This document shows, one piece after another, positions 16,396 to 43,375 of a stretch of 48,272 nucleotides of DNA. This DNA comes from Parcubacteria group bacterium Gr01-1014_33 (GTDB lineage Bacteria > Patescibacteriota > Minisyncoccia > Sungbacterales > HO2-52-23), in NCBI GenBank assembly GCA_007376125.1, contig VMFQ01000016.1:1-48272 (forward strand), written 5' to 3'. The translations under genes were made by a program, and so were the position numbers. A model generated the notes under the pieces. The model was not told where the DNA came from. It made no database searches and was given only the letters and a program-made list of their open reading frames with translations. Every line of letters starts with the position of its first letter. Position 1 is the stretch's first letter.

Positions 16396-19300
16396 TCAAA
16401 CTACAAAATTGATAAGCTTATTCTGGACAAAAATAATTTTCTTCGGCTCTGTGGTAAGAAACTTTCGGACTTGTTCAATTTGCATTGCGGCATCTTTTGC
16501 CTCTTTTTCTTTGGCACCCATCGGAAGTGTTGCGCGCCCGCGCAATTTACCGTTTACTTGGATCACGAGTTCAAACGTGTCTTCTTGAATGAGCTTCGGA
16601 TTGTATTTAGGCCACAGCTCAAGATGAATAGACCGAAAGGTTGTAGGTTGTAGGTTGTAGGTTGTAGAAAAAATTCTTTGCCACAATTCTTCAGAAATGT
16701 GTGGCGCAAAAGGCGCAAGAAGTTTCAAGAAAACGTTTATATCCTCTCCGCTCACCTTCTCCTTGTTTGATTCAAACTCATTTAACAAAACCATAAGCGC
16801 CGAGATCGCGGTGTTGTATTGCAAATTCTCAATATCTTCGGTAACTTTTTTGGTTGTCTGATGCAGTATCTTTTGTATTTTTGATTTGGGATTTGGGACT
16901 TTTTTGGAAATTGGGATTTGGGATCTGAGATTTTGCGAGATTTGTACCTGACCAAACCTCCAGACGCGCTCAAGAAATCTGGTGATCCCCTTTATGCCCG
17001 TATCGCGAAAATCTCCCCCCTGTTCAAACGGCCCCAAAAACATAAGATACATCCGCAGAGCGTCCGCGCCGTAGGCGCGGATGTATTCATCCGGATTCAC
17101 GACATTCCCTTTGGACTTGGACATCTTGGCGCCGTCTTTGATTAAGAGGCCGTGCGCGCGAAATTTCGCAAACGGCTCTTCAAAGTGCGTAAGCCCCCAG
17201 TCGGAAAACACCATCGCGAGAAACCGCGAATACAAGAGATGCAGGACCGAGTGCTCCGCGCCGCCGATATACATGTGCACCGGAAGCCATTTTTTTGTAA
17301 TTGCCGGATTCCATGGTTTTTTCTCCTCGCGAACCGATGGATAACGCAAAAAATACCAGGCAGAATCCAAAAACGTATCCGAAACATCAGTTTCCCGCCT
17401 TGCCCACGATTTGCACTTTGGGCAACGGACTTTATAAAACCTTTCAACTGATGCAAGGGGGGATTTTCCCGTGCCCGTAGGACGAAATTTTTTAATGTAG
17501 GGCAACCGCACCGGCAAGTCCTTTTCCGGAACAGGATGCCATCCTAATCCGTCCGAAGTCGGACTTCCATCGGAAGTCCGACTTCGCTTTGCGCAATTTT
17601 CGCAAAAAATCATAGGAATTGGGGGCCCCCAGTAACGCTGGCGTGAAATCAGCCAATCGCGAAGGCGGTAATGTACAGTTCGTTTCCCTTTCACAAATTT
17701 CGTAATCTCCCATTTTGCTTTTTCAGAGTCCGTACCGGTAAATTTTCCTGAATTTATCAAAATGCCGGAATTTGTATGCACGCGTTGATGGAAAATTGAC
17801 GGGGCACTCGTCGTATCATACCTAAGCTCAATGGCGCGTCCAACTGCTTGCTTTAAAAAACGAATCCAATGATCATGTTCGTGATTATAGTTGTTCCGCT
17901 CTAGGTTCTCGAGAATTTCTCCTGCACTTACCCACTCCACTATGAAGTCTTCGTGTGTCTCAAGTTTTTGTTCCTGAACTGCAGTTGTTTTTAGTATCAC
18001 TAAAAAGCAGGTTGCCTTGGCAAAACGATCCACATTGCGAGGAATATTGTGATAATGAGCAAATGCCGTCTCAATCTGTTCAACATGAACGAAATCATAA
18101 TATCCGCTTTCCTCTTTTATCTCCCGCAAAATTCCTTTTTCAATATCTTCCCCCTCCTCTACTCCTCCGGAGAATAGTCCGTACCATTCTCGTTCTCCCT
18201 TTTTCCAATGGGCTATCGCATACTTTTGCGTTTCAGGATCAAAAACTACTCCGGAACCACCATCTCTGAATTCCTCTTTATTGCGTTTCTCGCCAGTTTC
18301 TGGAGCAACAATCTGACGAATCGGCAAATCAAACTTCTTTGCAAACTCAAAGTCGCGCTCGTCGTGTGCAGGAACTGCCATAATCGCGCCCGTGCCTATA
18401 TTACCCAGAACATAATCTGCAACCCAAATTGGAATCATTTCCCCATTTGCCGGATTGATTGCTTTTACTCCTTTTAGTTCAACTCCGGTTTTTTCTTTGC
18501 TCGCGGCAATTCGCTCTTCTTCAGATTTCGATTTCGCGTTTTGGATGTATCCTCGGACTTCCCCATAATTCATAATTCCTGATTCCTGATTCATCAGCAT
18601 CGGATGCTCCGGCGCCACCACCAAATACGTCGCCCCGAAAAGCGTATCCGCCCTTGTGGTAAATACCTCAATAAACGCTGACTCACGCTGACTGGACGCG
18701 GACTTACGCAGAATTTCCGTGTTAGTCCGCGTCGTGTCCGCGTAGTTCCGCGAGAGAGCGAACTTTATAAGTGCGCCCTCCGATCTCCCGATCCAATTCC
18801 TCTGCGCGATTTTTATCCGCTCGGACCAATCAATTTTTTCTAAATTCTTCAAAAGCCGTTCCGCATAATCAGTAATCTTAAAAAACCACTGCTCCAAATC
18901 TTTTTTGTGGACTTTTGATCCGCACCTCTCACATTCCCCGGAAATCACCTGCTCATCCGCAAGCACTGTTTTGCACGAAGGACACCAATTTACGGCTTGC
19001 TTCTTTCTATATGCGAGACCCTCTTTAAAGAGCCGCACAAAAATCCATTGAGTCCATTTATAGTATTCGGGATCGTACGTTTCAAGCCGCTCTTGCCACG
19101 CAAAGCCGTTTCCGATCATCTGGAGCTGGCGATAAAAATTCTTTTCGGTGATCCGCGAAAGTTCCATCGGATGTTTTCCGATTTTCAACGCATAATTTTC
19201 AGAATGTATTCCAAACCCGTCCAGCCCAATCGGCTCAAATACATCATACCCTTGCATCCGCTTAAAACGCCCATAAATATCCGCGCCGGTAAATGCATAC

Positions 19301-19485
19301 ATATTTCCCACATGAAGCCCTTCCGCCGATGGGTACGGAAACATCATGAGGTTATAAAATGGCTTTTTTGCGCGCGTCCCTATTCCGCGTCTTCGTGGTC
19401 GGGCAAGTAAATCCGGCTCATAGATTTTTCCCTTAAGCCAACGCGCTTGCCATTTGGATTCAATTTTTTGAGGGAAGTAACGCAT
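16396..19485 (-). CDS. leuS: Leucyl-tRNA synthetase with a nested Nudix domain and several short insertions
   Basis: HIGH-type motif PYPSAEGLHVGN, CP1 motifs TTRADTLFGATY and GTGAIMAVPAHDERDFEFA, RLRDWLISRQRYWG and KMSKSKGN. Start chosen at MRYFPQKIESKWQ. Confidence 0.9.
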   Translation of the reverse strand: MRYFPQKIESKWQARWLKGKIYEPDLLARPRRRGIGTRAKKPFYNLMMFPYPSAEGLHVGNMYAFTGADIYGRFKRMQGYDVFEPIGLDGFGIHSENYALKIGKHPMELSRITEKNFYRQLQMIGNGFAWQERLETYDPEYYKWTQWIFVRLFKEGLAYRKKQAVNWCPSCKTVLADEQVISGECERCGSKVHKKDLEQWFFKITDYAERLLKNLEKIDWSERIKIAQRNWIGRSEGALIKFALSRNYADTTRTNTEILRKSASSQRESAFIEVFTTRADTLFGATYLVVAPEHPMLMNQESGIMNYGEVRGYIQNAKSKSEEERIAASKEKTGVELKGVKAINPANGEMIPIWVADYVLGNIGTGAIMAVPAHDERDFEFAKKFDLPIRQIVAPETGEKRNKEEFRDGGSGVVFDPETQKYAIAHWKKGEREWYGLFSGGVEEGEDIEKGILREIKEESGYYDFVHVEQIETAFAHYHNIPRNVDRFAKATCFLVILKTTAVQEQKLETHEDFIVEWVSAGEILENLERNNYNHEHDHWIRFLKQAVGRAIELRYDTTSAPSIFHQRVHTNSGILINSGKFTGTDSEKAKWEITKFVKGKRTVHYRLRDWLISRQRYWGPPIPMIFCENCAKRSRTSDGSPTSDGLGWHPVPEKDLPVRLPYIKKFRPTGTGKSPLASVERFYKVRCPKCKSWARRETDVSDTFLDSAWYFLRYPSVREEKKPWNPAITKKWLPVHMYIGGAEHSVLHLLYSRFLAMVFSDWGLTHFEEPFAKFRAHGLLIKDGAKMSKSKGNVVNPDEYIRAYGADALRMYLMFLGPFEQGGDFRDTGIKGITRFLERVWRFGQVQISQNLRSQIPISKKVPNPKSKIQKILHQTTKKVTEDIENLQYNTAISALMVLLNEFESNKEKVSGEDINVFLKLLAPFAPHISEELWQRIFSTTYNLQPTTFRSIHLELWPKYNPKLIQEDTFELVIQVNGKLRGRATLPMGAKEKEAKDAAMQIEQVRKFLTTEPKKIIFVQNKLINFVV
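16639..16667. repeat. Tandem heptamer (GGTTGTA)x4 inside leuS
   Basis: Four perfect 7-nt units. Encodes TTYNLQPTT. Confidence 0.85.
16883..16944. repeat. Degenerate heptamer tract (GATTTGG-type) inside leuS
   Basis: gatttgggatttggga ... attgggatttgggatctgagattttgcgagatttg. Encodes QISQNLRSQIPISKKVPNPKSKIQ. Confidence 0.6.
17534..17586. repeat. Compound palindrome inserted in frame in leuS
   Basis: GGATGCCATCC, then GAAGTCGGACTTC and GAAGTCCGACTTC. Encodes RSRTSDGSPTSDGLGW between CENCA and HPVPEKDLPV. Confidence 0.6.
17790..18298 (-). other. Nudix hydrolase domain nested in the LeuRS CP1 domain
   Basis: Perfect Nudix box GGVEEGEDIEKGILREIKEESGY (Gx5Ex7REUxEExGU). It lies between the LeuRS segments FDLPIRQIVAPE and NSGILINSGKFTG. 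Confidence 0.7.
18565..18592. repeat. Tandem heptamers ATAATTC x2 and CTGATTC x2 inside leuS
   Basis: Direct reading. Encodes NQESGIMNY. Confidence 0.75.
18694..18733. repeat. Hairpin-forming insertion in leuS
   Basis: GACGCGGACT (18694..18703) pairs with AGTCCGCGTC (18724..18733). It lies within a ~75-nt extra segment encoding RNYADTTRTNTEILRKSASSQRESA, ahead of IEVFTTRADT. Confidence 0.5.
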
Positions 19486-19492
19486 AAAATAT

Positions 19493-19521
19493 AGTGTAGC
19501 CGCAATCCCTTGGCTTGACAA
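19493..19521 (-). promoter_or_regulatory. Sigma-70-like promoter for leuS, implying a near-leaderless mRNA
   Basis: Minus strand: TTGTCA-17 nt-TACACT, then 7 nt to the ATG at 19485. No SD sequence. Confidence 0.4.
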
Positions 19522-19588
19522 GCCGCGCATAGAACTTTATGGTAGACGTAAATAGTTCTCTTTTTTTCAGCATTGTGGGAGGAGTCGT

Positions 19589-19998: not shown

Positions 19999-20943
19999 TC
20001 ATTCTCTGGCTATAGCAAGTCCAAAGAGAGAGAATGTATTTTTTACAGTGGTTTCGCTGACATTGTTCAGCGAAACTTTTTTTATTTCCGCCATCTTTCT
20101 TGCCACTTCACTAATATACGCAGGTTCATTCCGTTTCCCGCGATACGGCGCGGGCGTTACATACGGCGCGTCTGTTTCAAGCAAAATCCGATCAAGCGGA
20201 ATAAACTTTATAACCTCTTCGTAGTCGCTTGCCCCGTTAGAGGCCCGCGCTGAAGGCGCGGCAGTCGCTTCTGGCGACTTGCCTCTAACAGGGCGCGCGA
20301 ATGTGATCACCCCTCCGAAAGAAAATGAAAACCCGAGATCAAGAAGTTTCCGCGCATCATCCACAGTGCCGGTAAAGAAATGGATCACGCCGGGGTTAGG
20401 AAGTAGGTTAGAGGTAGTAGGTTGTAGGATTGAAATCAGGTCAGAAAATGCATTCCGGCAGTGAACCATCAATGGTTTTTTCACATCCGCCGCAAGTTCA
20501 ATTTGTTTTAAAAATACATCTTTTTGTTTCTCTTTCGTCTCCTCGCTTAAACGGTAGTAATCAAGTCCGCATTCCCCTATCCCCACAACTTTTGAATCTT
20601 CGGCTAAATTTTTGTAATACTCGTAGTCAAACTCTTCAGCTCGAGAAGTAAAACCTTTTTCCTCTCCGACATTCTCATATTCTTGAGAATATGGGAATGT
20701 TCCGAGCTCCTGCTCATCGTGATATGATTTTTCCGTATGAATAGGATGGAGACCGACCGTTGCATACACTCCTTCCGAATATCTGTGCGCGGTCTCAATC
20801 GCAGATTTTGAAGTATCGCGCTGGGTGCCCACGTTTATCATCCACACCCCCGCATCCAACGCGCGCCGAATAACCGTATCCCGATCATCGTGGAATGCGG
20901 CAAATTGAGTATGGGTATGGACATCAAATAATCGCGGAGTCAT
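19999..20943 (-). CDS. tatD: TatD-family metal-dependent hydrolase/DNase
   Basis: LFDVHTHTQ (HxH), GECGLDY and LLETDAPYVTPAPYRGKRNEP. Start chosen at MTPRLFDVHTH. Confidence 0.85.
   Translation of the reverse strand: MTPRLFDVHTHTQFAAFHDDRDTVIRRALDAGVWMINVGTQRDTSKSAIETAHRYSEGVYATVGLHPIHTEKSYHDEQELGTFPYSQEYENVGEEKGFTSRAEEFDYEYYKNLAEDSKVVGIGECGLDYYRLSEETKEKQKDVFLKQIELAADVKKPLMVHCRNAFSDLISILQPTTSNLLPNPGVIHFFTGTVDDARKLLDLGFSFSFGGVITFARPVRGKSPEATAAPSARASNGASDYEEVIKFIPLDRILLETDAPYVTPAPYRGKRNEPAYISEVARKMAEIKKVSLNNVSETTVKNTFSLFGLAIARE
20232..20293. repeat. Cloverleaf-like palindromic element inserted in frame in tatD
   Basis: Outer arms CCCCGTTAGAGGC/GCCTCTAACAGGG. Inner hairpins CCGCGC-TGAAG-GCGCGG and AGTCGC-TTCTG-GCGACT. 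Encodes the extra PVRGKSPEATAAPSARASNG. Confidence 0.65.
20394..20428. repeat. Degenerate heptamer tract (NNGTAGG x5) inside tatD
   Basis: ggttagg aagtagg ttagagg tagtagg ttgtagg. Encodes LQPTTSNLLPNP. Confidence 0.7.
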
Positions 20944-21108
20944 ATAATCAGCAATGGTGCGGTCCCGATTTTTTGTCCACAAAAATCGAGGATCCTCGAT
21001 TTGCTCTGCCAATCGGGATAAATTGGGTGTGGGCATGGATGTCAAACAAGAACGGCGTAGACATTCATGTTGTATAAGTATACACTAAATTAGTAAATCT
21101 TAGAATGA

Positions 21109-21684
21109 GTGTTTATGGAAAAATTTGAAGGAAGAAAGCAAATGGAATTAGAAAAACCTCCGTTTCTCTATCACGGATCTCCTAATCGAAACATTCAAGG
21201 GTTTGAGCCGCGCACCAGCAGTGGGACAGGAGAGAAATTAGGAACACAAGTGTATGCGTCTCAAGACATGGCAGTTGCTTCTATATTTTTATTAAACCCA
21301 GAGCGGACTTGGTCTGCGGGAAAATTTAATGATGTACTTTTCGCAGTCATACCGATAAACCGGGATGAGTTCATTAAAAACGATAAAGGCGGATGTATCT
21401 ATGTACTTCCGAGTGATCACTTCGAATCAGATCCGAAACATGGTATGGGAGAATATGAATGGCATTCTCCCCAAAAAGTAAAACCGATTAAAAAGATGCA
21501 ATTTTCTTCTGCTCTTGATGCGGCCATTCAAAATGGAGTTCAAGTATATTTGGTAGATAAAGAGACCTTCCAACGCATTGAGAAATCAAAAGATCATGGA
21601 CTGTTGATCCTACAAAAACTGGAATCAGAAAATCAAAGAAGAGGGATAAATATAAAATCATTACACGCTACTACCAATTCATAA
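21109..21684 (+). CDS. Hypothetical protein (191 aa)
   Basis: Long ORF on the opposite strand to its neighbours, with PPFLYHGSP near the N-terminus. No family recognised. Confidence 0.5.
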   Translation: MFMEKFEGRKQMELEKPPFLYHGSPNRNIQGFEPRTSSGTGEKLGTQVYASQDMAVASIFLLNPERTWSAGKFNDVLFAVIPINRDEFIKNDKGGCIYVLPSDHFESDPKHGMGEYEWHSPQKVKPIKKMQFSSALDAAIQNGVQVYLVDKETFQRIEKSKDHGLLILQKLESENQRRGINIKSLHATTNS

Positions 21685-21710
21685 TCGCGGGAATAAACCC
21701 CCCGCTTTTT

Positions 21711-22093
21711 CTATTTCCCAATGATCCGATATTCTCCTTCTCTAATCAGAACAAGCTTGCCAGAAAGATTTTTTCCCGCTCTTAACAGCTTTAACAAATA
21801 TGCAAGAGCATTCAGAGGACTCTGGTTTCGCAACCGGATTAAAATGACGCCCGGATGAGTTCTTACTGGGAAACGAACCAGATTTCCAAAATCTTTATCG
21901 TGAGTCACAATAATCCGTCTTTCGCGCCGCGCAAATTCCATAATATCCTCGTCCGGTCTTTCCTCGTACCCGACACTTCGGGACGCATGCCTGAAGCAAG
22001 TAACTCCAAAATAAATTCTACCGATATCCTGGTCCCTTTTATGATCGGTTTTCCTTGAAGAATATTTGGATTAAACGTAATTCTATTTTCCAT
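21711..22093 (-). pseudogene. Degraded DUF433 antitoxin / DUF5615 toxin pair fused by an internal deletion
   Basis: The DUF433 N-terminus NPNILQGKPIIKGTRISVEFILELLASG runs, with a frame change, into a DUF5615 C-terminal half DEDIMEFARRERRIIVTHDKDFG...GVILIRL. The DUF433 tail and the DUF5615 head are missing. Confidence 0.55.
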
Positions 22094-22123
22094 GCTTCAA
22101 TTATATCCAAAGTAGTATAGAAA

Positions 22124-22213
22124 TCAAGTGTGTAAAATAACCGCATCCTGATCCTCGCAAAATGCGGCAAATTGGGTATGGGTGTGGACGTCAAAAAATG
22201 ATGGATTAGACAT
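22124..22213 (-). pseudogene. tatD: tatD 5' remnant (about 27 codons)
   Basis: Encodes MSNPSFFDVHTHTQFAAFCEDQDAVILHT-stop, against intact tatD ...RLFDVHTHTQFAAFHDDRDTVI. The DNA match gcggcaaattgggtatgggtgtggacgtc parallels 20895..20925. Confidence 0.75.
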
Positions 22214-22281
22214 GTTATTTTCATTATGCTACTGTTCTTATAAAGTCGTTCTTTAATAGAAAGTACAAGGAGGATGTAAAA

Positions 22282-22434
22282 ATGGCGAAGTCAAAATTTG
22301 CTTTAGGATTATTGAAAAAATTTGGACAATCAAAAGTCCTTTGTGGATTTAATGCCACCAGAAGTAAATGTCGCGCCAAGATAAAGGAGTCTAATAGAAA
22401 AATGAGGCGAGGGAAATATCCTTCTTTGCGATAA
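22282..22434 (+). CDS. Small basic protein (50 aa), hypothetical
   Basis: AGGAGG lies 7 nt upstream of the ATG. MAKSKFALGLLKKFGQSK...RRGKYPSLR. Below the ORF-track length cutoff. Confidence 0.35.
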   Translation: MAKSKFALGLLKKFGQSKVLCGFNATRSKCRAKIKESNRKMRRGKYPSLR

Positions 22435-22454
22435 TAAAATTAAAACAGTCTGCC

Positions 22455-23930
22455 TTACGACGACAACCGCGGGAATAATATCCCCGCTTTTTTTATTTTC
22501 AAGACCGAATTTTCAAAAGAAATTTGTTCGCGGATTTTTTTTGTCGTATCCGGTAAAAACGGCTCAAGGAGATTTGCGATTTCAAGGATAGCCAGCGAAA
22601 GATCTATAATCACCTGCGGCTTTTCCTGTTCCCACGGCTTTTCCTCGTTGATATATTTATCCGCCGCTTTGATAATTTGCCATACATATTCTAATGTGGA
22701 ATGGAACCGAAATTCGCGCATTGCAACCTCGTAATTTTCTCGGACCTCTTGAATAATAGTAACTAATTCTTGATTTGTGATTTGTGATTCGTGATTTGTG
22801 ATTCGCGCCTTTTCCCCAAGCGCCGCCACGCGCGCCACCAAGTTCCCCAGTCCGTTTGCAAGGTCTCCGTTATACCTATCCTCAAACTTTTTGTAACTAA
22901 AATCACCATCTTCCCACGCGGGAATTTCACGCAGGAGATAATAGCGTACCGGATCGGTGCCGTATTTTTCAACAAGTTCAATTGGATCAATCACGTTACC
23001 GAGCGTCTTTGACATCTTTTGCCCCTCAACCGTAATATACCCGTGCACAAAAAGGGTTTTGGGAAGTTCTAATTTTGCCGAAAGAAGAAACGCGGGCCAA
23101 TACACCGCATGGAACCGTGTGATACCTTTTCCAATCACATGGAGATCCGCAGGCCACCACTTTTGGTACGTCGCCTCATCCCAGCCAAAACCGATGCCTG
23201 ATTGATAAATATTTAATGCGTCAAACCATACATATATCTTTTGAGTATCGTCTCCCGGCACCGGCACGCCCCAATTTTTTGCGCGCGCGTTTGAGCGAGA
23301 AATGCTTAAGTCCTGAAGCGGTTCTCTCAAAAATGCGAGCATCTCGTTTTTGCGTGTTTCAGGGATTATTGTAAGTGTGTCCGAAGCAATAAGCCGGATA
23401 AGATCATCCTGATAGCGAGAAAGCCGGAAAAAATAATTTTCCTCGGAGACGATATCAAGTTTTCTCCCCGGATGTTCAAAACATTCGCCGTTTTTACCTA
23501 ACTCGTCCGGAGTATAAAACATTTCGCATCCCACGCAATAAAGACCCTCATACATTTTTTTATAGATATCTCCGTTTTGCGCGCATAAGCGCCACAACTC
23601 TTGGCTTGACGGATAGTGGTGATCTTTGTCGCTTCCTTTTTGAAAAACGTCAAATTGGACATTGTAGCGGCGCGCAAGATCCAAAAAGAGTTTTGCGTTT
23701 TCATCAACAAAATCCTGTACATCTCTGCCCGCCTGCTCTGCCGCCTGAACATTTTTAAGCGCGTTTTCATCGCTTCCGCAAAGGAGGAGTGTTTCTTTCC
23801 CGCGCATGCGCTGGTAGCGAGCGATGGTATCGCTTTGGACAAATTCCAGCGCGTGTCCAATATGCGGCTTTGCATTCACATAGGGAATGGCGTTTGTGAT
23901 ATAAAATTTTTTTGCGGTCTCTTTCTTCAT
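22455..23930 (-). CDS. metG: Methionyl-tRNA synthetase
   Basis: YITNAIPYVNAKPHIGHALE (HIGH-type) and KMSKTLGNVIDP. Confidence 0.92.
   Translation of the reverse strand: MKKETAKKFYITNAIPYVNAKPHIGHALEFVQSDTIARYQRMRGKETLLLCGSDENALKNVQAAEQAGRDVQDFVDENAKLFLDLARRYNVQFDVFQKGSDKDHHYPSSQELWRLCAQNGDIYKKMYEGLYCVGCEMFYTPDELGKNGECFEHPGRKLDIVSEENYFFRLSRYQDDLIRLIASDTLTIIPETRKNEMLAFLREPLQDLSISRSNARAKNWGVPVPGDDTQKIYVWFDALNIYQSGIGFGWDEATYQKWWPADLHVIGKGITRFHAVYWPAFLLSAKLELPKTLFVHGYITVEGQKMSKTLGNVIDPIELVEKYGTDPVRYYLLREIPAWEDGDFSYKKFEDRYNGDLANGLGNLVARVAALGEKARITNHESQITNQELVTIIQEVRENYEVAMREFRFHSTLEYVWQIIKAADKYINEEKPWEQEKPQVIIDLSLAILEIANLLEPFLPDTTKKIREQISFENSVLKIKKAGILFPRLSS
22771..22805. repeat. Tandem heptamer (TGATTYG)x5 inside metG
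   Basis: tgatttg tgatttg tgattcg tgatttg tgattcg. Encodes ITNHESQITNQ. Confidence 0.85.
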
Positions 23931-23957
23931 ATATGTACTTGTATCTTATCCGAAAAT

Positions 23958-24695
23958 TTATGGTTTTTCAAGGTTAAAAATATGGTCTCCGCTTTTGATC
24001 GCAAATCGTTCTGCCGCGCTCCCGCCTTGCACCACAATTTCAAGAAACCGATTTTCTCCCACGCCCGAACTTCCTCTGATACACGCGCTTGCCTGATCCG
24101 GCACATCTTTTAGGCGGGCAATATACGGAAGCGCGCCCCATAGCGTTTCTATTGTCTTGCCTTGTGTAAAATCTATTTCGCGCAGAAGAAGCGTTGTCTT
24201 GCAATTGCCAAAGTTATCTACCCACCAGACCATAGGAAGCATATCAGGAATTTTATCAATTGAGCAAATATCTCCCGGAAGATCGTGATGGGCGAGAAGA
24301 TACGCCGCAATCCGCGGAAGAAAATCATAACTGCGAAATTGTGTTTCCGCGATATAATGCTTACTGTGTTCCACTGCTAATCCAGATTTTACGAGTTCTT
24401 CTATTGCCCGCGCAGTGTCAATAATGCGGAGGGATGCGGCCAATCCGAGCTTTTTTACAAGCGAGAACGTGATGTCGTCAATTGTCCCCACGACAAGCGT
24501 TTCTCCATGCCAAAAGTAGCCGAAAGGGCTTCCGTTTTTCCATTTCTTCGCATTGCCATGCCGTGGGGCTACATTAACCAAGATCGCGCCTTTGCGTCCC
24601 TCAAGCGCGTCAATAAGATTACCCGCCGCCTCTCCATCGTCTGTTACGCCGATAAACGCAACCGCAGAATCAAAAAGACTTGAAACACGCGCCAT
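23958..24695 (-). CDS. DUF62-like protein (SAM hydroxide adenosyltransferase / SAM-cleaving family), tentative
   Basis: VWWVDNFGNCKTT and C-terminal GENRFLEIVVQGGSAAERFAIKSGD resemble the DUF62 C-terminal barrel. The N-terminus LVNVAPRHG is divergent. Confidence 0.4.
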   Translation of the reverse strand: MARVSSLFDSAVAFIGVTDDGEAAGNLIDALEGRKGAILVNVAPRHGNAKKWKNGSPFGYFWHGETLVVGTIDDITFSLVKKLGLAASLRIIDTARAIEELVKSGLAVEHSKHYIAETQFRSYDFLPRIAAYLLAHHDLPGDICSIDKIPDMLPMVWWVDNFGNCKTTLLLREIDFTQGKTIETLWGALPYIARLKDVPDQASACIRGSSGVGENRFLEIVVQGGSAAERFAIKSGDHIFNLEKP

Positions 24696-24808
24696 TTGCC
24701 TACCTGCGGCATTTGCGTCGCGACAATCATTAATTACTACCGTGCTTATAAATAAAAAACCTCCGGACGGAGAAAATTTTTACTGTTTCTCGTAAAGAAA
24801 AACAAAAA

Positions 24809-24874
24809 TTACCCCACGTGGAAGAGGTTCATCATCCGCATCATCATCATCATCATGGAATTTTTGTTATCCAT
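24809..24874 (-). promoter_or_regulatory. Candidate leaderless Met-rich leader peptide MDNKNSMMMMMMRMMNLFHVG
   Basis: ATG at 24874 lies 7 nt after a -10 box. The tract is (ATG)6 CGG (ATG)2. A weak hairpin plus T-tract follows (24751..24772), then the DUF62-like gene and metG. Confidence 0.35.
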
Positions 24875-24881
24875 ATTAAAC

Positions 24882-24910
24882 ATGGTATCGCAATTCTAAA
24901 ATCAAGTCAA
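24882..24910 (-). promoter_or_regulatory. Sigma-70-like promoter upstream of the Met-rich peptide
   Basis: Minus strand: TTGACT-17 nt-TACCAT. Confidence 0.35.
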
Positions 24911-24968
24911 TTTCCTAGAGAAATAGACGCTCCCTTTGCATCTTCAGCAAACGAGAATCTCCACACAA

Positions 24969-25388
24969 TTATTTCCGTTTTCTGTGCCAATACATTGCGC
25001 CGAGAAGTCCTCCGAGCGTATCAAACATAAGATCACCAATATTGTCCGCGTATGTCATAATGCTTGCCTGACCGAGTATGAGTACCTGATAGCGATCAAT
25101 TATGAGTTCGTACCATTCCCATAACACACCGAGCACTATGGCACCCGCAACGTAGAGCGCGATTTCCATCCAGAAAGGAATTTCAATGCGATGCGAGAGC
25201 CGCGCGTACGAAACAAGCTCCCGAGTGAAAAAAAATGCGTACACGCCCCCGACAATATGCAACACATTGCTTATTTCCCATGCGGTCCACGATTGAGGAT
25301 TGATAGTCCAGACAAGGATATAGGCGCTTAGCACGATACCGCCCCCTACCCCCAGAAGAGAGTAAATCTTTTTTTTATGAGGTTGCAT
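24969..25388 (-). CDS. Membrane protein (139 aa), hypothetical
   Basis: Four predicted hydrophobic helices. No motif recognised. Confidence 0.55.
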   Translation of the reverse strand: MQPHKKKIYSLLGVGGGIVLSAYILVWTINPQSWTAWEISNVLHIVGGVYAFFFTRELVSYARLSHRIEIPFWMEIALYVAGAIVLGVLWEWYELIIDRYQVLILGQASIMTYADNIGDLMFDTLGGLLGAMYWHRKRK

Positions 25389-25537
25389 GTCTGCTATTGA
25401 CCTTTCACAGTTACCTTAACGCAGGGAGGTTCAAAAATGGCTTATTTTAGGGATTTTTTAAGATACGACTTGTTAAGCTGATAGTGAAAGATCAATAAGA
25501 TATAGAACTTTCGCGTTTGATGAAAATCACGAACGTT

Positions 25538-25616
25538 TGTCATTCCCGTGAAAGCGGGAATCCAGTGTTCATGCTCTATACGGTGTTTCTGGATTCCCGC
25601 TTTCACGGGAATGACA
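25538..25616. repeat. Nested inverted repeat (two 27-nt arms, each itself a hairpin)
   Basis: GTCATTCCCGTGAAAGCGGGAATCCAG (25538..25564) and its exact reverse complement (25590..25616). It lies immediately downstream of the AI-2E gene stop. Confidence 0.8.
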
Positions 25617-25643
25617 GTAAACGCGTAAGTCCTAAGATATTTT

Positions 25644-26687
25644 CTACTCCGGCATCAATGCGCGTTTCTTTTTATCCCAATCGTCCAGAAATTCCGCCCC
25701 AATCGCCGTAAGCGGAACCGCAAGGAGAATTCCGAAGATGCCGCCGAGTTTCCCGCCCACTAAAAGTGCGAGCACGACGATCAATGGGCTTAGTCCTATT
25801 GCTTTTCGCATAACCACCGGCACGATTATGTGGCTTTCCATCTGCTGCACCGCAACAAAGAGAATCGCCGTGGATATACCGAGCAAAGGCGAGGCAAGAA
25901 ACGCGGCAGACACCGCGGGGACCGCGGCAAGGATAGGGCCTACAACCGGAATAATTTCAAACACCGCGGAGAGAAGCGCGAAAAGGAGCGCATACCGTAC
26001 GCCAAGCATCGTGAGTCCGAAGAAAATGAAAAATCCGACTATCGCGCCGAGAAGTATCTGCGTTTGAAGCCATCGCCCAAGTTTTTTTTGCGCGCGCGTC
26101 CAAAGATCCAATACATACGGCTCTTGGTCCAGAGGCGTTACAAGCCGCAAGAAACTTTCAATTCCTCTCTCTTGCGCCGCAAGATAAAACGAGAATACAA
26201 TAATCAGCGCAAATGAGAAAATGCCTCCGAATATCCCTGCCGCAAAATTAACCACGCCTCCGCTTATCTTGCCGGCAAACTCCGTAGGGATACGGAAAAA
26301 TAAATCGGCGTTATCGGAAAGAAACGGAGTAAGAGAGAAAAATCCAAGGTGTTCAATTTCCGTCAAAAATTGGGATTGGAGCGCGGGAAATGTGGTACTC
26401 ACTGTTTGAAGCTCCTCCGCAACCAAAGGAAAGATGAGATAGATGATAAATGCGGCAAACGCGGCAAGCCCGATATATATCAAAAGCGCGCCCAAAATTC
26501 GCGGCACCTTTCTTTTTTGGAGCCAGCGTATCGCCGGCTCAATGGCGGATGCCACAATCACGGCGAAAATCAACGAGAATATAATGTCGCTTATGTAGTA
26601 CACCGCGGCAAGCGCAATAATGATTGCAAAAAAACGAAGAAAGGTCGCGGTAGAGATATTGAGATAGTGTGATTCTTTCTGGTTCAT
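25644..26687 (-). CDS. AI-2E family transporter (PerM/UPF0118)
   Basis: 347 aa, about 8 TM helices, with the typical IPVVGPILAAVPA and GGIFGILLAVPL segments. Confidence 0.8.
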   Translation of the reverse strand: MNQKESHYLNISTATFLRFFAIIIALAAVYYISDIIFSLIFAVIVASAIEPAIRWLQKRKVPRILGALLIYIGLAAFAAFIIYLIFPLVAEELQTVSTTFPALQSQFLTEIEHLGFFSLTPFLSDNADLFFRIPTEFAGKISGGVVNFAAGIFGGIFSFALIIVFSFYLAAQERGIESFLRLVTPLDQEPYVLDLWTRAQKKLGRWLQTQILLGAIVGFFIFFGLTMLGVRYALLFALLSAVFEIIPVVGPILAAVPAVSAAFLASPLLGISTAILFVAVQQMESHIIVPVVMRKAIGLSPLIVVLALLVGGKLGGIFGILLAVPLTAIGAEFLDDWDKKKRALMPE

Positions 26688-26702
26688 AGTAAAAAACTTG
26701 AT

Positions 26703-27971
26703 CTAAAAAGCGCCGAGAATTTTTTGAAACATCTCCTTATCCTTACACGGCCCGATCATCGCAAGATGCAGTTTCTCCGGACGCATGAGTTCTCGCGAAA
26801 CCTCTCGGATATCCTCGGCAGTTACCCCGTCAATTTTCGCAAACACTTCTTCCGCAGTCATTGGTTTTCCGGTGATCATCTCCTCGGTCCCCACGAAACT
26901 TGCCACCGCGTTTGATTGCTCAAGCCCGATTAACGTAGTGCCGCGGATATAGTTTTTTACGCGTTTTAATTCTTCCTCCGACACAAGTTCTTGCGTTATT
27001 TTTTTATATTCCTCAAGCGCGGCTTGGATTGTTTTCTCCACGTTTTTATGATCCACTCCCGCGTACGTTACCAATTGCCCTCGGTTTGAGTACGACTCGT
27101 GGCTTGTCCATACGGTGTAGGCAAGTCCCAGTTTTTCCCGAATTCTATCCCACATGCGCGCGCTCCACGATCCGCCAAGGAGCGTTGCGAGGACATCCGC
27201 GGCATAGCGTTTTTCATGGAACGCATCGTACCCGTGGAATCCGAGCGCAATATGCGTCTGATCCGTCTCTTTATACTCAAGCGCAATACGCTCCGCGTCC
27301 GGCTCCCGATATTCGGCTTTTTTCCGAAACGGCGCATCATGCCGGATACCGGAAAAAAGTTCCTTTATCTTTTGAAATGTTTTTTCCTCATCAAAGTTTC
27401 CGGCAACCACCACCGCGGTGTCTCCCGCCACATATTGATGATGAAAATAATTTACAAAATCGTCCCGCGCAAGCCCGCGGATAACTTTTTCTTCTCCGAT
27501 CACGTCGCGTCCCGCTGGCTGATCTCCGTATAAGAGCCGTTCCCATACCCACCAAATATAGAGCGTGGGCGTGTCGCGATCTTTATGCATTTCTTCTATT
27601 ATTACCTGCCGCTCGCGCTCAATTTCTCCTTCCGTAAGGAGAGAATTATTATAAATATCGGCAAGCAAATCCAAAGATTGGTCAAGATATGTTTTCGCGG
27701 CCTTTATGTGATAACCCGTAATTTCGTGCGATGTAAACGCGTTTGAAATGGAACCCATGCTGTCAAGCTCGTGTTTAATCTCATCCGGCGTGGGACGGTT
27801 TTTCGTGCCTTTAAAAAACATGTGCTCCAAGAAATGCGAAATTCCGTTAATCTCGCGCGATTCATAATCCGATCCAGTGCCGCACAAAACAAGTATGGTT
27901 ACCGTATTTGTCCCCTGCATGGGCGCAGTAATAATCCTCAAACCATTGTCTAACGTAGTTTTTTTAAACAT
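26703..27971 (-). CDS. M16-family (pitrilysin/insulinase-like) zinc peptidase
   Basis: Inverted zinc motif HFLEHMFFKGT (HxxEH). Confidence 0.85.
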   Translation of the reverse strand: MFKKTTLDNGLRIITAPMQGTNTVTILVLCGTGSDYESREINGISHFLEHMFFKGTKNRPTPDEIKHELDSMGSISNAFTSHEITGYHIKAAKTYLDQSLDLLADIYNNSLLTEGEIERERQVIIEEMHKDRDTPTLYIWWVWERLLYGDQPAGRDVIGEEKVIRGLARDDFVNYFHHQYVAGDTAVVVAGNFDEEKTFQKIKELFSGIRHDAPFRKKAEYREPDAERIALEYKETDQTHIALGFHGYDAFHEKRYAADVLATLLGGSWSARMWDRIREKLGLAYTVWTSHESYSNRGQLVTYAGVDHKNVEKTIQAALEEYKKITQELVSEEELKRVKNYIRGTTLIGLEQSNAVASFVGTEEMITGKPMTAEEVFAKIDGVTAEDIREVSRELMRPEKLHLAMIGPCKDKEMFQKILGAF

Positions 27972-27993: not shown

Positions 27994-28365
27994 TTATATC
28001 TCTACTAGACCAAGACTAATTTTAAGCGCACCACCAACTCGAATCATGGTATCAGATGTGATCATGCCTACGCGCCGGATTAAGCGTACGTTATCAATAG
28101 TGCGTATCTGATTGAGAAGTATTGCCGATTCTTCCGTTAATCCCCCTTCGCCTCTCTGGACTAATACTTCCGTAGGATAGAGCGGTGGATTAAATTGTGA
28201 AGTGACCGCCGCAACGATGGTTACAGGACTATGTGCATTTGCCACATCATTTTGAAGAATGAGTGCAGGACGAGTTTTTCTGATTTCCGCGCCAAGAGTA
28301 GGATCAAAATTCACCAGCCAAATTTCACTCCGCCGTGGCGTACTTATTTTCTTCTTTTTTTCCAT
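27994..28365 (-). CDS. mazF: MazF/PemK-type mRNA interferase toxin
   Basis: RSEIWLVNFDPTLGAEIRKTRPALILQND and LNQIRTIDNVRL. Confidence 0.85.
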   Translation of the reverse strand: MEKKKKISTPRRSEIWLVNFDPTLGAEIRKTRPALILQNDVANAHSPVTIVAAVTSQFNPPLYPTEVLVQRGEGGLTEESAILLNQIRTIDNVRLIRRVGMITSDTMIRVGGALKISLGLVEI

Positions 28366-42886: not shown

Positions 42887-43375
42887 ATGTCCGACCTCTC
42901 TGTCAATCGCCGCGCACATTTTGACTACGAAATCCTCGCAACCTACGAGGCGGGAATTGAGTTGCTCGGATTTGAAGTAAAAGCGGTGAAAACCGGGCGG
43001 ATGAATTTGGCTGGGGCATTTGTCGTAATCCGCGGAGAAGAGGCCCACCCCCACACTAAAACGCAAAAACGTTTTAGTGTGGGGGCATGGCTCTTAAATG
43101 CGGCGATTGCCCCGTATCAGCCGAAAAATACGCCTGCGGATTATGAGCCCACGCGCTCGCGGCGGCTACTTTTGCATAAATCCGAAATTAAAGAACTACT
43201 TGGCCAGACAAGCCAAAAAGGTTTGACAATCATACCCTTAAAAGTGTATACTAAAAGAAATCGCGTGAAGGTCTTGATCGGCATTGCCCGCAGTAAAAAG
43301 AAAGGCGACAAGCGGGAAGTTATCAAACGAAGAGAAGCATCGCGCGAGATTGATCGCACGTTGAAACGGGGGTGA
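42887..43375 (+). CDS. smpB: SsrA-binding protein with a 14-aa insertion
   Basis: NRRAHFDYEILATYEAGIELLGFEVK and GARLLLHKSEIKEL-type motifs. tmRNA lies immediately downstream. Confidence 0.92.
   Translation: MSDLSVNRRAHFDYEILATYEAGIELLGFEVKAVKTGRMNLAGAFVVIRGEEAHPHTKTQKRFSVGAWLLNAAIAPYQPKNTPADYEPTRSRRLLLHKSEIKELLGQTSQKGLTIIPLKVYTKRNRVKVLIGIARSKKKGDKREVIKRREASREIDRTLKRG
43048..43085. repeat. Perfect 16-bp-stem hairpin inserted in frame in smpB
   Basis: CCCCCACACTAAAACG-CAAAAA-CGTTTTAGTGTGGGGG. It encodes the extra HPHTKTQKRFSVG between GEEA and WLLNAAIAPY. Confidence 0.8.

What the first reader, a model, noticed from the sequence alone, without database searches (positions are those of the whole stretch)
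24740..24910. Candidate leaderless Met-rich leader peptide upstream of a DUF62-like gene and metG
On the minus strand, a TTGACT-17-TACCAT promoter is followed 7 nt later by an ATG. This is the same -10-to-ATG spacing seen at leuS. The ATG opens MDNKNSMMMMMMRMMNLFHVG-stop, which has 9 Met among 21 codons and contains (ATG)6 CGG (ATG)2. Downstream there are short, mutually exclusive pairings: TTTCT/AGAAA, GAGAAA/TTTCTC, and CTCC-GTCC-GGAG followed by GTTTTTTATTT. Next come a DUF62-like gene (a SAM-cleaving family) and methionyl-tRNA synthetase. This layout resembles amino-acid leader-peptide attenuators such as trpL and hisL. I am not aware of a methionine-codon-sensing version being established. 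Caveats: the stems are short and AU-rich, and the Met run could be a plain trinucleotide microsatellite.
Basis: inference. Interest (0 to 1): 0.65.

Follow-up and report, generated by a model that had tools for sequence, protein, structure and literature searches.

The report
Methionine-sensing leader peptide attenuator
A 21-codon mini-gene packed with methionine codons sits in front of a SAM-cleaving-type enzyme gene and the methionyl-tRNA synthetase gene. The same mini-gene, followed by a switchable terminator, recurs in about half of the distantly related Patescibacteria examined, so it is very probably a ribosome-read sensor of methionine supply, a type I could not find described.

Summary
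On the minus strand there is TTGACT-17-TACCAT, an ATG 7 nt later, MDNKNSMMMMMMRMMNLFHVG-stop, then a weak hairpin and a U-run.

It is not a chance microsatellite. In 80 loci from diverse Patescibacteria (DUF62-like proteins 43-56% identical), 41 carry an ATG-started 14-34-codon ORF with a Met cluster (MMMxMM) upstream of the DUF62-like gene. Of 35 dense ATG-codon clusters in 953 kb scanned, 33 lie there.

- All 41 leaders are followed by a hairpin plus U-run.
- The 3' end of the leader ORF pairs with the terminator's 5' arm. Cognate duplexes have a median of -15.2 kcal/mol against -9.9 for non-cognate ones (p = 2e-9).
- Both helices covary on an alignment that was not fitted to structure.
- A covariance model built without the window finds 24838-24750 as its only significant hit (33.9 bits).
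- Promoter spacing and the absence of SD motifs indicate leaderless leader ORFs.

The conserved target is the DUF62-like gene; the metG linkage is specific to this lineage. The DUF62-like gene really starts at 24749 with ATA, directly after the U-run.

No Rfam, NCBIfam or Pfam family matches, and no paper in the searched library describes it. No transcript data exist, so function is inferred.

The parts
24905..24910 (-). -35-like hexamer TTGACT
   Evidence: Read directly and listed by the promoter scan. 18 of 36 relatives have a TTGnnn-like -35, a 16-19 nt spacer and TAnnnT in the same position relative to their leader ATG.
24882..24887 (-). -10-like hexamer TACCAT, 7 nt before the leader ATG. 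The predicted transcript starts at or next to the ATG, so it is leaderless.
   Evidence: Across the family, TAnnnT ends 4-10 nt before the leader ATG in 22 of 36 loci (8.7 expected), with peaks at 6 and 9 nt. An SD-like motif occurs in 1 of 36. No transcription start site data exist.
24809..24874 (-). Leader ORF: MDNKNSMMMMMMRMMNLFHVG plus TAA
   Evidence: Homologous Met-cluster sORFs occur in 41 relatives. No Pfam or NCBIfam family matches.
24830..24856 (-). Regulatory codon run (ATG)6 CGG (ATG)2: 8 Met codons within 9 codons
   Evidence: 33 of 35 dense ATG-codon clusters in 953 kb of related loci lie within 300 nt upstream of a DUF62-like gene on the same strand. This is the only such cluster in the window.
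24824..24829 (-). Segment 1 (AACCUC), inside the leader ORF directly after the Met run. It can pair with segment 2 (GGGGU, -5.5 kcal/mol) or with the GGAGG of the terminator's 3' arm.
   Evidence: Conservation of this segment in the family was not tested.
24797..24815 (-). Segment 2, the antiterminator 5' strand GGGGUAAUUUUUGUUUUUC. It contains the leader stop codon, starts 17 nt after the first base of the last Met codon, and is a near-copy of segment 4 plus the U-run.
   Evidence: Folding gives -12.8 kcal/mol for the 2:3 structure. In relatives the equivalent segment starts 9-31 nt (mostly 10-23) after the last Met codon and pairs with the terminator's 5' arm.
24769..24791 (-). Segment 3 (GAGAAACAGUAAAAAUUUUCUCC), the shared strand. 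It pairs either with segment 2 (antiterminator) or with segment 4 (terminator).
   Evidence: In the masking model the terminator forms with a ribosome at the stop codon and does not form with a ribosome stalled at the last Met codon (row WIN).
24760..24773 (-). Terminator-like hairpin UCUCC-GUCC-GGAGG (-5.3 kcal/mol)
   Evidence: It is aligned to the terminator helix of the family model R1.
24750..24759 (-). U-tract UUUUUUAUUU, running up to the start codon of the DUF62-like gene
   Evidence: The same TTTTTTATTT followed by ATG occurs in the closest DUF62 relatives L202 and L204.
23958..24749 (-). Regulated gene: a divergent DUF62/SAM_HAT-fold protein (263 aa). The start codon position holds ATA.
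   Evidence: Pfam SAM_HAT_C scores 28 bits against a cutoff of 25.5. The N-terminus is fixed by alignment to relatives. The AlphaFold2 model has pLDDT 90.7. Foldseek top hits are DUF62 SAM hydrolases and chlorinases, E 3e-12 to 3e-9, TM 0.57-0.70.
22455..23930 (-). metG (methionyl-tRNA synthetase, 491 aa), 27 nt downstream with no terminator in between. It is possibly co-transcribed, and it also has its own promoter-like site at 23971-23943.
   Evidence: The linkage is not conserved.

Best explanation
This is a ribosome-mediated (leader-peptide) transcription attenuator that senses the supply of charged methionine tRNA.

Proposed mechanism (shown in sequence and folding only; the response itself is inferred):
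1. A promoter (TTGACT-17-TACCAT) starts a transcript at or next to the AUG of a 21-codon leader ORF, so the ORF is leaderless.
2. When Met-tRNA is plentiful, the ribosome runs through the eight Met codons to the UAA at 24811-24809. There it covers segment 2 (GGGGUAAUUUUUGUUUUUC).
3. Segment 3 then pairs with segment 4, giving the UCUCC-GUCC-GGAGG hairpin plus U-tract. Transcription stops just before the DUF62-like gene, and the start region is also occluded.
4. When Met-tRNA is scarce, the ribosome stalls in the AUG run (or never initiates). Segment 2 stays free and pairs with segment 3 as soon as it is made. The terminator cannot form and RNA polymerase reads into the DUF62-like gene and, in this genome, probably on into metG.

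The regulated enzyme has the fold of SAM hydrolases and halogenases. As established knowledge of that family (not tested here), all characterised members release L-methionine from S-adenosylmethionine. The logic would then be: release methionine from SAM, and here also make more MetRS, when methionine runs short.
For: Shown by sequence and computation:
- The Met-cluster sORF is conserved, in the Met frame and on the gene's strand, in 41 of 79 usable DUF62-like loci from diverse Patescibacteria whose proteins are only 43-56% identical. It is also present in the two closest relatives, L202 and L204.
- 33 of 35 dense ATG-codon clusters in 953 kb lie in the 300 nt upstream of these genes.
- All 41 leaders are followed by a hairpin plus U-run, median -12.7 kcal/mol.
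- The leader's 3' part pairs with the terminator's 5' arm. Cognate median is -15.2 against -9.9 kcal/mol for non-cognate (Mann-Whitney p = 2e-9). In 27 of 33 loci the pairing beats shuffles at p <= 0.05.
- On a MAFFT alignment not fitted to structure, the terminator helix is 82% paired (covariation 0.320 against 0.223, 0 of 500 shuffles as high). The antiterminator is 73% paired (0.282 against 0.221, 1 of 500).
- With a ribosome footprint at the stop codon the terminator forms in 36 of 41 loci. With the ribosome stalled at the last Met codon it forms in 22 of 41. The window itself switches: formed at the stop, not formed when stalled.
- A covariance model built from 28 relatives, without the window, hits 24838-24750(-) at 33.9 bits, E 8e-5. 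The next hit scores 14.9 bits. The model also recovers leaders it was not trained on.
- Leaderless geometry: TAnnnT ends 4-10 nt before the leader ATG in 22 of 36 loci (8.7 expected), and SD-like motifs occur in 1 of 36.
- The enzyme fold is DUF62.
Against: - There are no RNA data for the window or for two relatives that were tried. The transcription start site, the premature 3' end and the starvation response are therefore all inferred.
- The window's terminator is short and weak (5 bp, -5.3 kcal/mol).
- With segment 2 free, the equilibrium fold of the window still allows an extended terminator (-14.6 against -12.8 kcal/mol). In 22 of 41 loci the terminator remains the minimum-energy fold in the 'stalled' state. 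The switch must therefore be kinetic, as it is in classical attenuators.
- The DUF62-like gene has ATA where 74 of 79 relatives have ATG, so expression of this copy may be impaired.
- Methionine shortage also limits initiation at the leader AUG.
- Coupling of transcription and translation in these bacteria has not been studied.
- The enzyme's N-terminal domain is divergent and its activity is untested.
Confidence: 0.75

Rival explanations
1. Translational attenuation. The hairpin acts mainly by hiding the ribosome-binding or start region of the DUF62-like gene rather than by terminating transcription. A ribosome stalled in the Met run would open that region, as with the mycobacterial poly-Cys leaderless sORFs or ermC.
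For: - In the window the 3' arm GGAGG lies 10 nt before the start codon, and the U-run is the spacer.
- In several relatives the hairpin also ends 6-12 nt before the ATG (L066, L070, L078, L080, L025, L040, L055).
- The minimum-energy fold of 24835-24745 pairs AACCUCUU in the leader with GGAGGUUU.
Against: - In other family members the hairpin plus U-run lies roughly 90-165 nt upstream of the start codon (L007, L009, L023, L031), where it cannot occlude the start.
- Every member has a U-run directly after the stem, the signature of intrinsic terminators.
- This genome rarely uses SD motifs (about 5 of 40 genes).
- The two mechanisms may act together in the window.
Confidence: 0.13
2. The sORF encodes a functional Met-rich small peptide, for example a metal-binding or antioxidant peptide, a trans-acting regulator, or a substrate or partner of the DUF62-like enzyme. 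The downstream hairpin would then be an ordinary terminator.
For: - The peptide is conserved next to one enzyme family.
- Leader peptides with trans functions are known, for example peTrpL (PMC7298713, seen in the search list).
Against: - Only the Met cluster is conserved. Length (14-34 codons), flanking residues and the C-terminus vary freely.
- The 3' coding part is constrained at the RNA level, through complementarity to the terminator arm.
- An ordinary terminator between a promoter and the only gene it could serve makes sense only as an attenuator.
- No protein family matches.
Confidence: 0.06
3. Ligand-dependent nascent-peptide arrest. The MMMxMM peptide stalls the ribosome in response to free methionine or SAM (as TnaC does with tryptophan), rather than through shortage of Met-tRNA.
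For: - The motif MMMxMM, often followed by T, S, A or P, is somewhat more regular than a simple codon run.
- The regulated enzyme is of a SAM-cleaving type.
Against: - The spacing and number of Met residues vary widely: 3 to 8 Met, with interruptions by many different residues.
- The geometry (regulatory codons 9-31 nt before the antiterminator strand, stop codon within or just after it) is that of starvation-sensing attenuators.
- Ligand-induced stalling would switch on a Met-releasing enzyme when Met or SAM is high, which is plausible only if the enzyme's role is SAM disposal.
Confidence: 0.05
4. A plain (ATG)n microsatellite, or a chance ORF, with no function.
For: The six perfect ATG repeats in the window could have grown by slippage.
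Against: - Conservation across the family, positional enrichment of 33 of 35 clusters, and linked terminator and antiterminator.
- The covariance-model hit.
- A scan of metagenomes shows what plain (ATG)n microsatellites look like: none of the 120 loci returned lies next to a DUF62-like gene.
Confidence: 0.01

Closest known systems
Classical amino-acid leader-peptide attenuators of Proteobacteria (trpL, hisL, pheL, leuL, thrL, ilvL; Rfam Trp/His/Phe/Leu/Thr leader families)
   Same: - A short ORF with a run of codons for the sensed amino acid.
- An intrinsic terminator before the first structural gene.
- A mutually exclusive antiterminator whose 5' strand is masked by a ribosome that reaches the stop codon.
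   Different: - The codons are Met (AUG, also the start codon). I found no description of a Met-specific version.
- The leader ORF appears leaderless and has no SD.
- The host is Patescibacteria.
- The target is not a biosynthetic operon but a SAM-cleaving-type enzyme.
- There is no sequence match to any Rfam leader family (Phe_leader 16 bits against a cutoff of 55).
pheM-pheST attenuator of E. coli, and the His leader peptide upstream of hisS paralogues in Bacilli (PMC2965389)
   Same: A leader peptide rich in the cognate amino acid controls, by attenuation, an operon that contains the matching aminoacyl-tRNA synthetase. In the window, metG lies 27 nt behind the regulated gene.
   Different: The synthetase is not the conserved target here. 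metG follows the leader cassette in only 2 of 80 loci, and the closest MetRS relatives have no leader at metG.
Polycysteine leaderless short ORFs of mycobacteria, the 'Cys ribulon' (bioRxiv 10.1101/834739)
   Same: - A leaderless sORF that begins at the transcript's 5' AUG.
- A run of one amino acid's codons.
- Ribosome stalling remodels a downstream RNA structure to switch on genes that supply that amino acid.
   Different: - There the stalled ribosome frees a sequestered ribosome-binding site (translational control). Here every family member carries a hairpin plus U-run typical of transcription termination.
- The amino acid is Cys there and Met here.
- The host is Actinobacteria there and Patescibacteria here.
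Other methionine and SAM sensors: SAM riboswitches (S-box and others) and Met T-boxes
   Same: Cis-acting 5' leader with terminator and antiterminator alternatives, controlling methionine or SAM metabolism genes.
   Different: There is no aptamer or T-box structure, and Rfam finds nothing. The sensor here is a translating ribosome reading Met codons.
DUF62 / SAM_HAT enzymes: SAM hydrolases MJ1651 and PH0463, chlorinase SalL, fluorinase (for the regulated gene)
   Same: - Two-domain fold (Foldseek E 3e-12 to 3e-9, TM 0.57-0.70).
- The Pfam SAM_HAT_C domain.
- The alignment consensus contains DNFGNCKT and GSSG...FLEI stretches. From memory, these resemble canonical DUF62 C-terminal motifs; I did not check them against a DUF62 alignment.
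   Different: - Only 14-20% identical.
- The N-terminal domain is divergent: TIINDCRD and LVNVAPR in the alignment, in place of what I recall as the canonical TDFG and DPGVG motifs. That comparison is from memory, not tested.
- Activity and stereoselectivity are untested.

Membership tests
Ribosome-mediated (leader-peptide) transcription attenuators | A short ORF in the 5' leader carrying a cluster of codons for the amino acid linked to the regulated gene | tested here: met
   21 codons, with 8 Met codons within 9. A Met cluster is conserved in 41 relatives, and 33 of 35 clusters are positioned upstream of the gene.
Ribosome-mediated (leader-peptide) transcription attenuators | An intrinsic terminator (stem-loop plus U-tract) between the leader ORF and the regulated gene | tested here: met
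   Window: UCUCC-GUCC-GGAGG plus U6AU3, -5.3 kcal/mol, weak. Relatives: 41 of 41, median -12.7 kcal/mol. The helix covaries.
Ribosome-mediated (leader-peptide) transcription attenuators | A mutually exclusive antiterminator that uses the terminator's 5' arm, with its other strand placed so that a ribosome at the stop codon masks it and a ribosome stalled at the regulatory codons does not | tested here: met
   Cognate against non-cognate duplexes, p = 2e-9. Segment 2 starts 9-31 nt (mostly 10-23) after the last Met codon. Masking model: 36 of 41 against 22 of 41 loci, and the window switches. Covariation beats all but 1 of 500 shuffles.
Ribosome-mediated (leader-peptide) transcription attenuators | A transcript start upstream of the leader ORF, and premature 3' ends at the U-tract | not testable with these tools
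   No RNA runs exist for the window or for L046 and L048. Only promoter-like hexamers are available.
Ribosome-mediated (leader-peptide) transcription attenuators | Read-through rises when the cognate aminoacyl-tRNA is limiting | not testable with these tools
   This needs an experiment.
Rfam amino-acid leader families (Phe_leader, Trp_leader, His_leader, Leu_leader, Thr_leader and others) | A score at or above the family's gathering threshold | tested here: not met
   In the window only tmRNA passes. The best match in the region is Phe_leader at 16.4 bits against 55. Nothing is found at the leaders of 20 relatives.
Patescibacterial Met-leader element upstream of DUF62-like genes (family defined here) | A match to a covariance model built from relatives only | tested here: met
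   R1 was built from 28 relatives with the window excluded. It hits window 24838-24750(-) at 33.9 bits, E 8e-5 (E-values are rough). The next hit scores 14.9 bits. Untrained members L202, L034, L204, L018, L047, L031 and L046 are also found at the expected place.
Leaderless amino-acid-run sORF attenuators (mycobacterial Cys ribulon type) | The sORF starts at the 5' end of the transcript (leaderless) | tested here: inconclusive
   The -10 hexamer lies 7 nt before the ATG in the window. The family peaks at 6 and 9 nt, and SD-like motifs occur in 1 of 36. No transcription start site mapping is available.
Leaderless amino-acid-run sORF attenuators (mycobacterial Cys ribulon type) | The stalled ribosome frees a sequestered ribosome-binding site of the downstream gene (translational control) | tested here: inconclusive
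   GGAGG in the hairpin lies 10 nt before the start codon in the window. In several relatives, however, the hairpin lies roughly 90-165 nt upstream, and this genome rarely uses SD motifs.
DUF62 / SAM_HAT (regulated gene) | The two-domain SAM_HAT fold and the C-terminal domain signature | tested here: met
   Pfam SAM_HAT_C scores 28 bits against a cutoff of 25.5. The model has pLDDT 90.7. The nine best Foldseek hits are all chains of DUF62-family structures. A profile search of PDB sequences gives E 0.03 to (R)-SAM hydrolase.
DUF62 / SAM_HAT (regulated gene) | Cleavage of SAM with release of L-methionine | not testable with these tools
   This needs an enzyme assay. The N-terminal domain motifs differ from what I recall of canonical members (for the sequences here; the canonical motifs are from memory).

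The most novel reading that the evidence does not exclude
This would be the first methionine-specific ribosome-mediated attenuator. It is a leaderless poly-Met leader ORF, widespread in Patescibacteria, that switches on a divergent SAM-cleaving enzyme (and here also MetRS) when Met-tRNA is short.

Because AUG is both the start codon and the sensed codon, and a conserved segment-1 pairing has not been shown, failure to initiate and failure to elongate would both give read-through. That would make it a one-codon sensor of the whole methionine charging state.

It would also assign a physiological role, methionine recovery from SAM, to a large uncharacterised enzyme family of these reduced-genome bacteria.
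Probability: 0.55. Interest if true: 0.8.

Novelty: new variant of a known kind. Interest (0 to 1): 0.72.

Why it matters
Almost nothing is known about gene regulation in Patescibacteria (the candidate phyla radiation). These are tiny-genome, largely uncultivated bacteria that depend on others for amino acids.

- A conserved, sequence-recognisable methionine sensor gives a first handle on how they respond to nutrient supply.
- It extends leader-peptide attenuation to an amino acid for which I could not find an example. In other bacteria methionine control relies on SAM riboswitches, T-boxes or repressors (my own knowledge of the field, not checked here).
- It shows the mechanism working with leaderless mRNAs.
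- It gives a testable function, methionine recovery from SAM, for a large family of divergent DUF62-like enzymes.
- It also provides a compact module (about 125 nt from the leader ATG to the end of the U-tract) that could be tested in cell-free systems.

Tried and rejected
- **Population variation.** Only one run holds the organism, at about 12x as contigs. No variants of repeat length can be seen, so the slippage test could not be done.
- **RNA evidence.** No RNA runs exist for the window or for relatives L046 and L048.
- **Metagenome pattern scan** with ATGATGATGNNNATGATGAC, meant to find Met leaders in front of other genes. 
- **RNAalifold on a MAFFT alignment** recovered only 4 terminator pairs because of register shifts. 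I replaced it with per-locus energy tests and pair counting with named structures.
- **Rfam** and **Pfam and NCBIfam** on the peptides found nothing.
- **His-rich reading of the plus strand** (ORF 24818-25030): rejected. In relatives the cluster is always on the gene's strand, between a promoter and a terminator of that strand.
- **metG as the main target:** rejected.
- **ATG 24695 as the start of the DUF62-like gene:** rejected.
- **SD sequestration as the general mechanism:** put aside. The hairpin lies far from the start codon in several relatives, and this genome rarely uses SD motifs.
Full report
**1. The observation**

- TTGACT lies at 24910-24905. After a 17-nt spacer, TACCAT lies at 24887-24882. 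The promoter scan also lists this pair.
- Seven nucleotides later an ATG (24874) opens MDNKNSMMMMMMRMMNLFHVG, with TAA at 24811-24809.
- The run (ATG)6 CGG (ATG)2 occupies 24856-24830.
- Downstream are the short AU-rich pairings and the hairpin UCUCC-GUCC-GGAGG (24773-24760), followed by UUUUUUAUUU.

The mechanical ORF list starts the ORF at an in-frame ATG at 24883 that overlaps the -10 hexamer. This is the only trinucleotide repeat in the window and the only dense ATG-codon cluster. The 91 nt from 24835 to 24745 fold better than all 200 shuffles (z = -3.4). The longer stretch 24880-24696 is not exceptional (z = -1.4). Rfam has no family here; the best weak match is Phe_leader at 16 bits against a threshold of 55.

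**2. The surroundings**

The window comes from a Patescibacteria (CPR) genome in groundwater. On the minus strand the order is: peptidase M16, AI-2E transporter, a 139-aa membrane protein, the finding, a DUF62-like gene, metG, TatD, leuS.

The DUF62-like gene is mis-started in the mechanical annotation. Relatives begin M-x-x-T-I-I-N-D-C-R-D, and the window encodes ...VVINDCRDANAAGRQ in frame upstream of the ATG at 24695. In 74 of 79 usable relatives the start at the aligned position is ATG. The window has ATA there (24749-24747).

The 'terminator' U-run therefore runs right up to the start codon. The two closest relatives read TTTTTTATTT-ATG where the window reads TTTTTTATTT-ATA.

The protein matches Pfam SAM_HAT_C just above threshold. 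An AlphaFold2 model (pLDDT 90.7) has DUF62-family chains as its nine best Foldseek hits: SAM hydrolases MJ1651 and TM, a Thermus homologue, and chlorinases SalL and ClA2 (E 3e-12 to 3e-9, TM 0.57-0.70, 14-20% identity). As established knowledge of this family (not tested here), all characterised members cleave SAM at C5' and release L-methionine. Recent work describes the hydrolases as acting on the inactive (R)-sulfonium epimer (bioRxiv 10.1101/2025.08.29.672840).

**3. The decisive comparison**

I fetched 80 loci encoding relatives of the DUF62-like protein from one-genome-per-species contigs (43-56% identity; Yanofsky-, Kaiser-, Komeili-, Uhr-, Moran-, Falkow-, Wildermuth-, Magasanik-, Nomura-, Dojka-, Staskawicz-, Lipton-bacteria and others). 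After fixing each gene start, I listed small ORFs in the 300-350 nt upstream.

In 41 of 79 usable loci an ATG-started ORF of 14-34 codons contains a Met cluster and ends upstream of the gene, in most loci 50-100 nt before it. Two apparent further cases, L038 and L053, were judged false. Examples:
- MIARNSMMMRMMTPAHGG
- MNVKAQIEMMMAMMTLKNEGTFSYI
- MNITQQKMMMPMMMMTSTGGGCVFSA
- MTHLKTTMMNMMSTP

Only the Met cluster is conserved. Length, flanking residues and C-termini vary.

As a control, I counted windows of six codons holding at least four ATG. They occur 35 times in 953 kb (both strands of all loci). 33 of the 35 lie within 300 nt upstream of the DUF62-like gene on its strand. The two closest relatives, fetched separately, carry MIFQPKKLNTMMRMMTCDKRRLEFR and a variant with one Met changed to Val. 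The plain-microsatellite reading is excluded at the family level.

**4. Anatomy of the switch**

- Every one of the 41 leaders is followed, after its stop codon, by a stem-loop and U-run (median -12.7 kcal/mol, range -27 to -4; earlier passes).
- The sequence between the Met cluster and the terminator contains a near-copy of the terminator's 3' arm plus U-run. For example, in L004, GAAGGCGCCTTTCTC in the ORF matches GAAGGCCGCTTTCTTTT in the terminator. Both are complementary to GAGAAAGCGGCCTTC between them.
- Duplex energies between this segment and the terminator's 5' arm have a median of -15.2 kcal/mol for cognate pairs and -9.9 for non-cognate pairs from other loci (Mann-Whitney p = 2e-9). 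In 27 of 33 loci the pairing beats shuffles at p <= 0.05.
- The antiterminator strand begins 9-31 nt (mostly 10-23) after the last Met codon. It usually lies inside the ORF's 3' end or overlaps the stop codon. That is the geometry in which a terminating ribosome masks it and a ribosome stalled on the Met codons does not.
- In a simple masking model the terminator forms in 36 of 41 loci with the ribosome at the stop codon, and in 22 of 41 with the ribosome stalled at the last Met codon. In the window it forms in the first state and not in the second.
- On a MAFFT alignment of 28 relatives that was not fitted to any structure:
  - the terminator helix is 82% paired, with covariation 0.320 against 0.223 in shuffles (0 of 500 as high);
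  - the mutually exclusive antiterminator is 73% paired, with 0.282 against 0.221 (1 of 500);
  - both beat most slid registers.

**5. The window's own copy**

A covariance model built from those 28 relatives, without the window, finds 24838-24750(-) as the only significant hit in 48 kb (33.9 bits, E 8e-5, rough; next hit 14.9 bits). It also recovers leaders it was not trained on.

| Segment | Sequence | Coordinates |
|---|---|---|
| 1 | AACCUC | 24829-24824 |
| 2 (includes the stop codon) | GGGGUAAUUUUUGUUUUUC | 24815-24797 |
| 3 | GAGAAACAGUAAAAAUUUUCUCC | 24791-24769 |
| 4 | GGAGG, then the U-tract | 24764-24760, then 24759-24750 |

Folding energies are -12.8 kcal/mol for 2:3, -5.3 for the 3:4 hairpin and -5.5 for 1:2. 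This copy has the longest Met run and one of the weakest terminators in the family. With segment 2 free, an extended terminator is still slightly favoured at equilibrium (-14.6 kcal/mol). The switch must therefore be kinetic, as in classical attenuators.

**6. Leaderless start**

In 22 of 36 relatives a TAnnnT hexamer ends 4-10 nt before the leader ATG (8.7 expected from shuffles). There are sharp peaks at 6 nt (13 loci) and 9 nt (8 loci), and 18 loci also have a TTGnnn-like -35. An SD-like motif precedes the leader ATG in 1 of 36. The window's spacing of 7 nt fits.

Genes across the window mostly lack SD motifs, and several have a -10-like hexamer just upstream of the start codon. No start-site data exist, so 'leaderless' rests on promoter geometry.

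**7. What is regulated**

The conserved partner of the leader is the DUF62-like gene. In about a third of leader-bearing loci nothing follows on the same strand, and elsewhere the next genes differ. metG follows it in only 2 of 80 loci.

The closest MetRS relatives (67-70% identity, Sungbacteria) keep the synteny M16, AI-2E, a small gene, metG, TatD, leuS. They have no DUF62-like gene there and no Met cluster upstream of metG. In the window's lineage the leader plus DUF62 cassette therefore sits inserted in front of metG. With a 27-nt gap and no terminator, read-through would probably carry into metG. metG also has its own promoter-like site.

**8. Mechanism and rivals**

Best explanation (confidence 0.75): a ribosome-mediated transcription attenuator that responds to Met-tRNA supply. 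It switches on an enzyme expected to release methionine from SAM and, in this genome, probably MetRS as well.

The structure and its conservation are shown. The response to methionine, the transcript ends and the enzyme activity are inferred.

Rivals:
- Translational occlusion of the start region. This is plausible as an added layer in the window, where GGAGG lies 10 nt before the start. It is not general, since the hairpin lies roughly 90-165 nt upstream in some relatives.
- A functional Met-rich peptide.
- Ligand-dependent nascent-chain arrest.
- Chance.

One open point: methionine shortage also limits initiation at the leader AUG. Whether the untranslated leader defaults to read-through or to termination depends on a segment 1:2 pairing. 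That pairing exists weakly in the window, and I did not test it across the family.

**9. Comparison with known systems and novelty**

It works like trpL, hisL and pheL, and like pheM-pheST or the His leader at hisS (PMC2965389). It shares the leaderless amino-acid-run sORF with the mycobacterial poly-Cys attenuators (bioRxiv 10.1101/834739).

It is not a member of any Rfam leader family. The peptides match no Pfam or NCBIfam family. Eight full-text searches found no description of a methionine-codon leader peptide attenuator or of such an element in Patescibacteria. That library holds open-access papers and preprints only, so an earlier report in a subscription journal cannot be excluded.

I rate it a new variant of a known kind: a new amino-acid specificity, a new phylum, a new target, and a leaderless architecture.

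**10. Limits**

- There are no transcript or population data.
- The window's DUF62-like gene has an ATA start, which may mean weak expression or recent decay.

Noticed in passing
window 24747-24749 (-): The start-codon position of the DUF62-like gene holds ATA, where 74 of 79 relatives have ATG. The conserved N-terminal coding sequence upstream of the annotated ATG 24695 is intact. The closest relatives read TTTTTTATTT-ATG where the window reads TTTTTTATTT-ATA. This could be a rare non-canonical start, or a recent start-codon loss.
   Followed up: partly
whole window (gene starts listed): Only about 5 of 40 genes have an SD-like motif. Several have a TAnnnT hexamer 5-9 nt before the start codon, for example leuS (TACCAT, 8 nt, ATG) and 39788-41500 (TAGAGT, 6 nt, ATG). 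This suggests widespread leaderless mRNAs in this genome.
   Followed up: partly
window 16396-19530 (-), residues 428-544: Leucyl-tRNA synthetase carries an inserted NUDIX hydrolase domain next to its editing domain. The same architecture is listed for the LeuRS of a Sungbacteria relative (L206).
   Followed up: no
window 16638-16667 and 22771-22803: Perfect or near-perfect 7-nt tandem repeats (4.3 and 4.7 copies) lie inside leuS and metG. In metG they encode a stretch (ITNHESQITNQ) that falls in a linker that is variable among relatives.
   Followed up: partly
L205-L210 compared with window 19999-27971: The closest MetRS relatives (67-70% identity, Sungbacteria) share the gene order M16 peptidase, AI-2E transporter, small gene, metG, TatD, leuS, but lack the leader plus DUF62 cassette. 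The cassette appears to have been inserted in front of metG in the window's lineage.
   Followed up: yes
L205 and L207, about 2290-2500: About 200 nt upstream of metG in two relatives contains a long, nearly perfect inverted repeat (roughly 110 nt, GC-rich). Rfam has no match. It may be a structured RNA or a small mobile element.
   Followed up: no
L011, L014, L037, L039, L051 (about 130 nt upstream of the DUF62-like gene): DUF62-like loci without a Met leader still show a promoter-like site, then 60-90 nt without any sORF, then a hairpin plus U-run directly before the ATG. This may be a different, ORF-less attenuator for the same gene. Rfam finds nothing.
   Followed up: partly
L052, L059, L062, L076 (upstream of the DUF62-like gene): These loci share a conserved stretch, GGTATTCCTCGCTATTTCCCATCACA ... 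CCCTTCAGCCAAGGG, followed by T-rich sequence. It looks like the 3' end of a conserved RNA or element. Rfam has no match.
   Followed up: partly
L201 2355-3813; L001 1723-2154: Other methionine-related neighbours of the DUF62-like gene. In L201 a methionine sulfoxide reductase (PMSR) and a methyltransferase lie directly upstream; that locus has no leader and a TTG start. In L001 a 143-aa ORF resembling the MetRS C-terminal domain lies directly downstream.
   Followed up: no
window 43368-43730 (+); 27994-28365 (-): A tmRNA gene (109.5 bits) and a MazF/PemK-type toxin gene.
   Followed up: no
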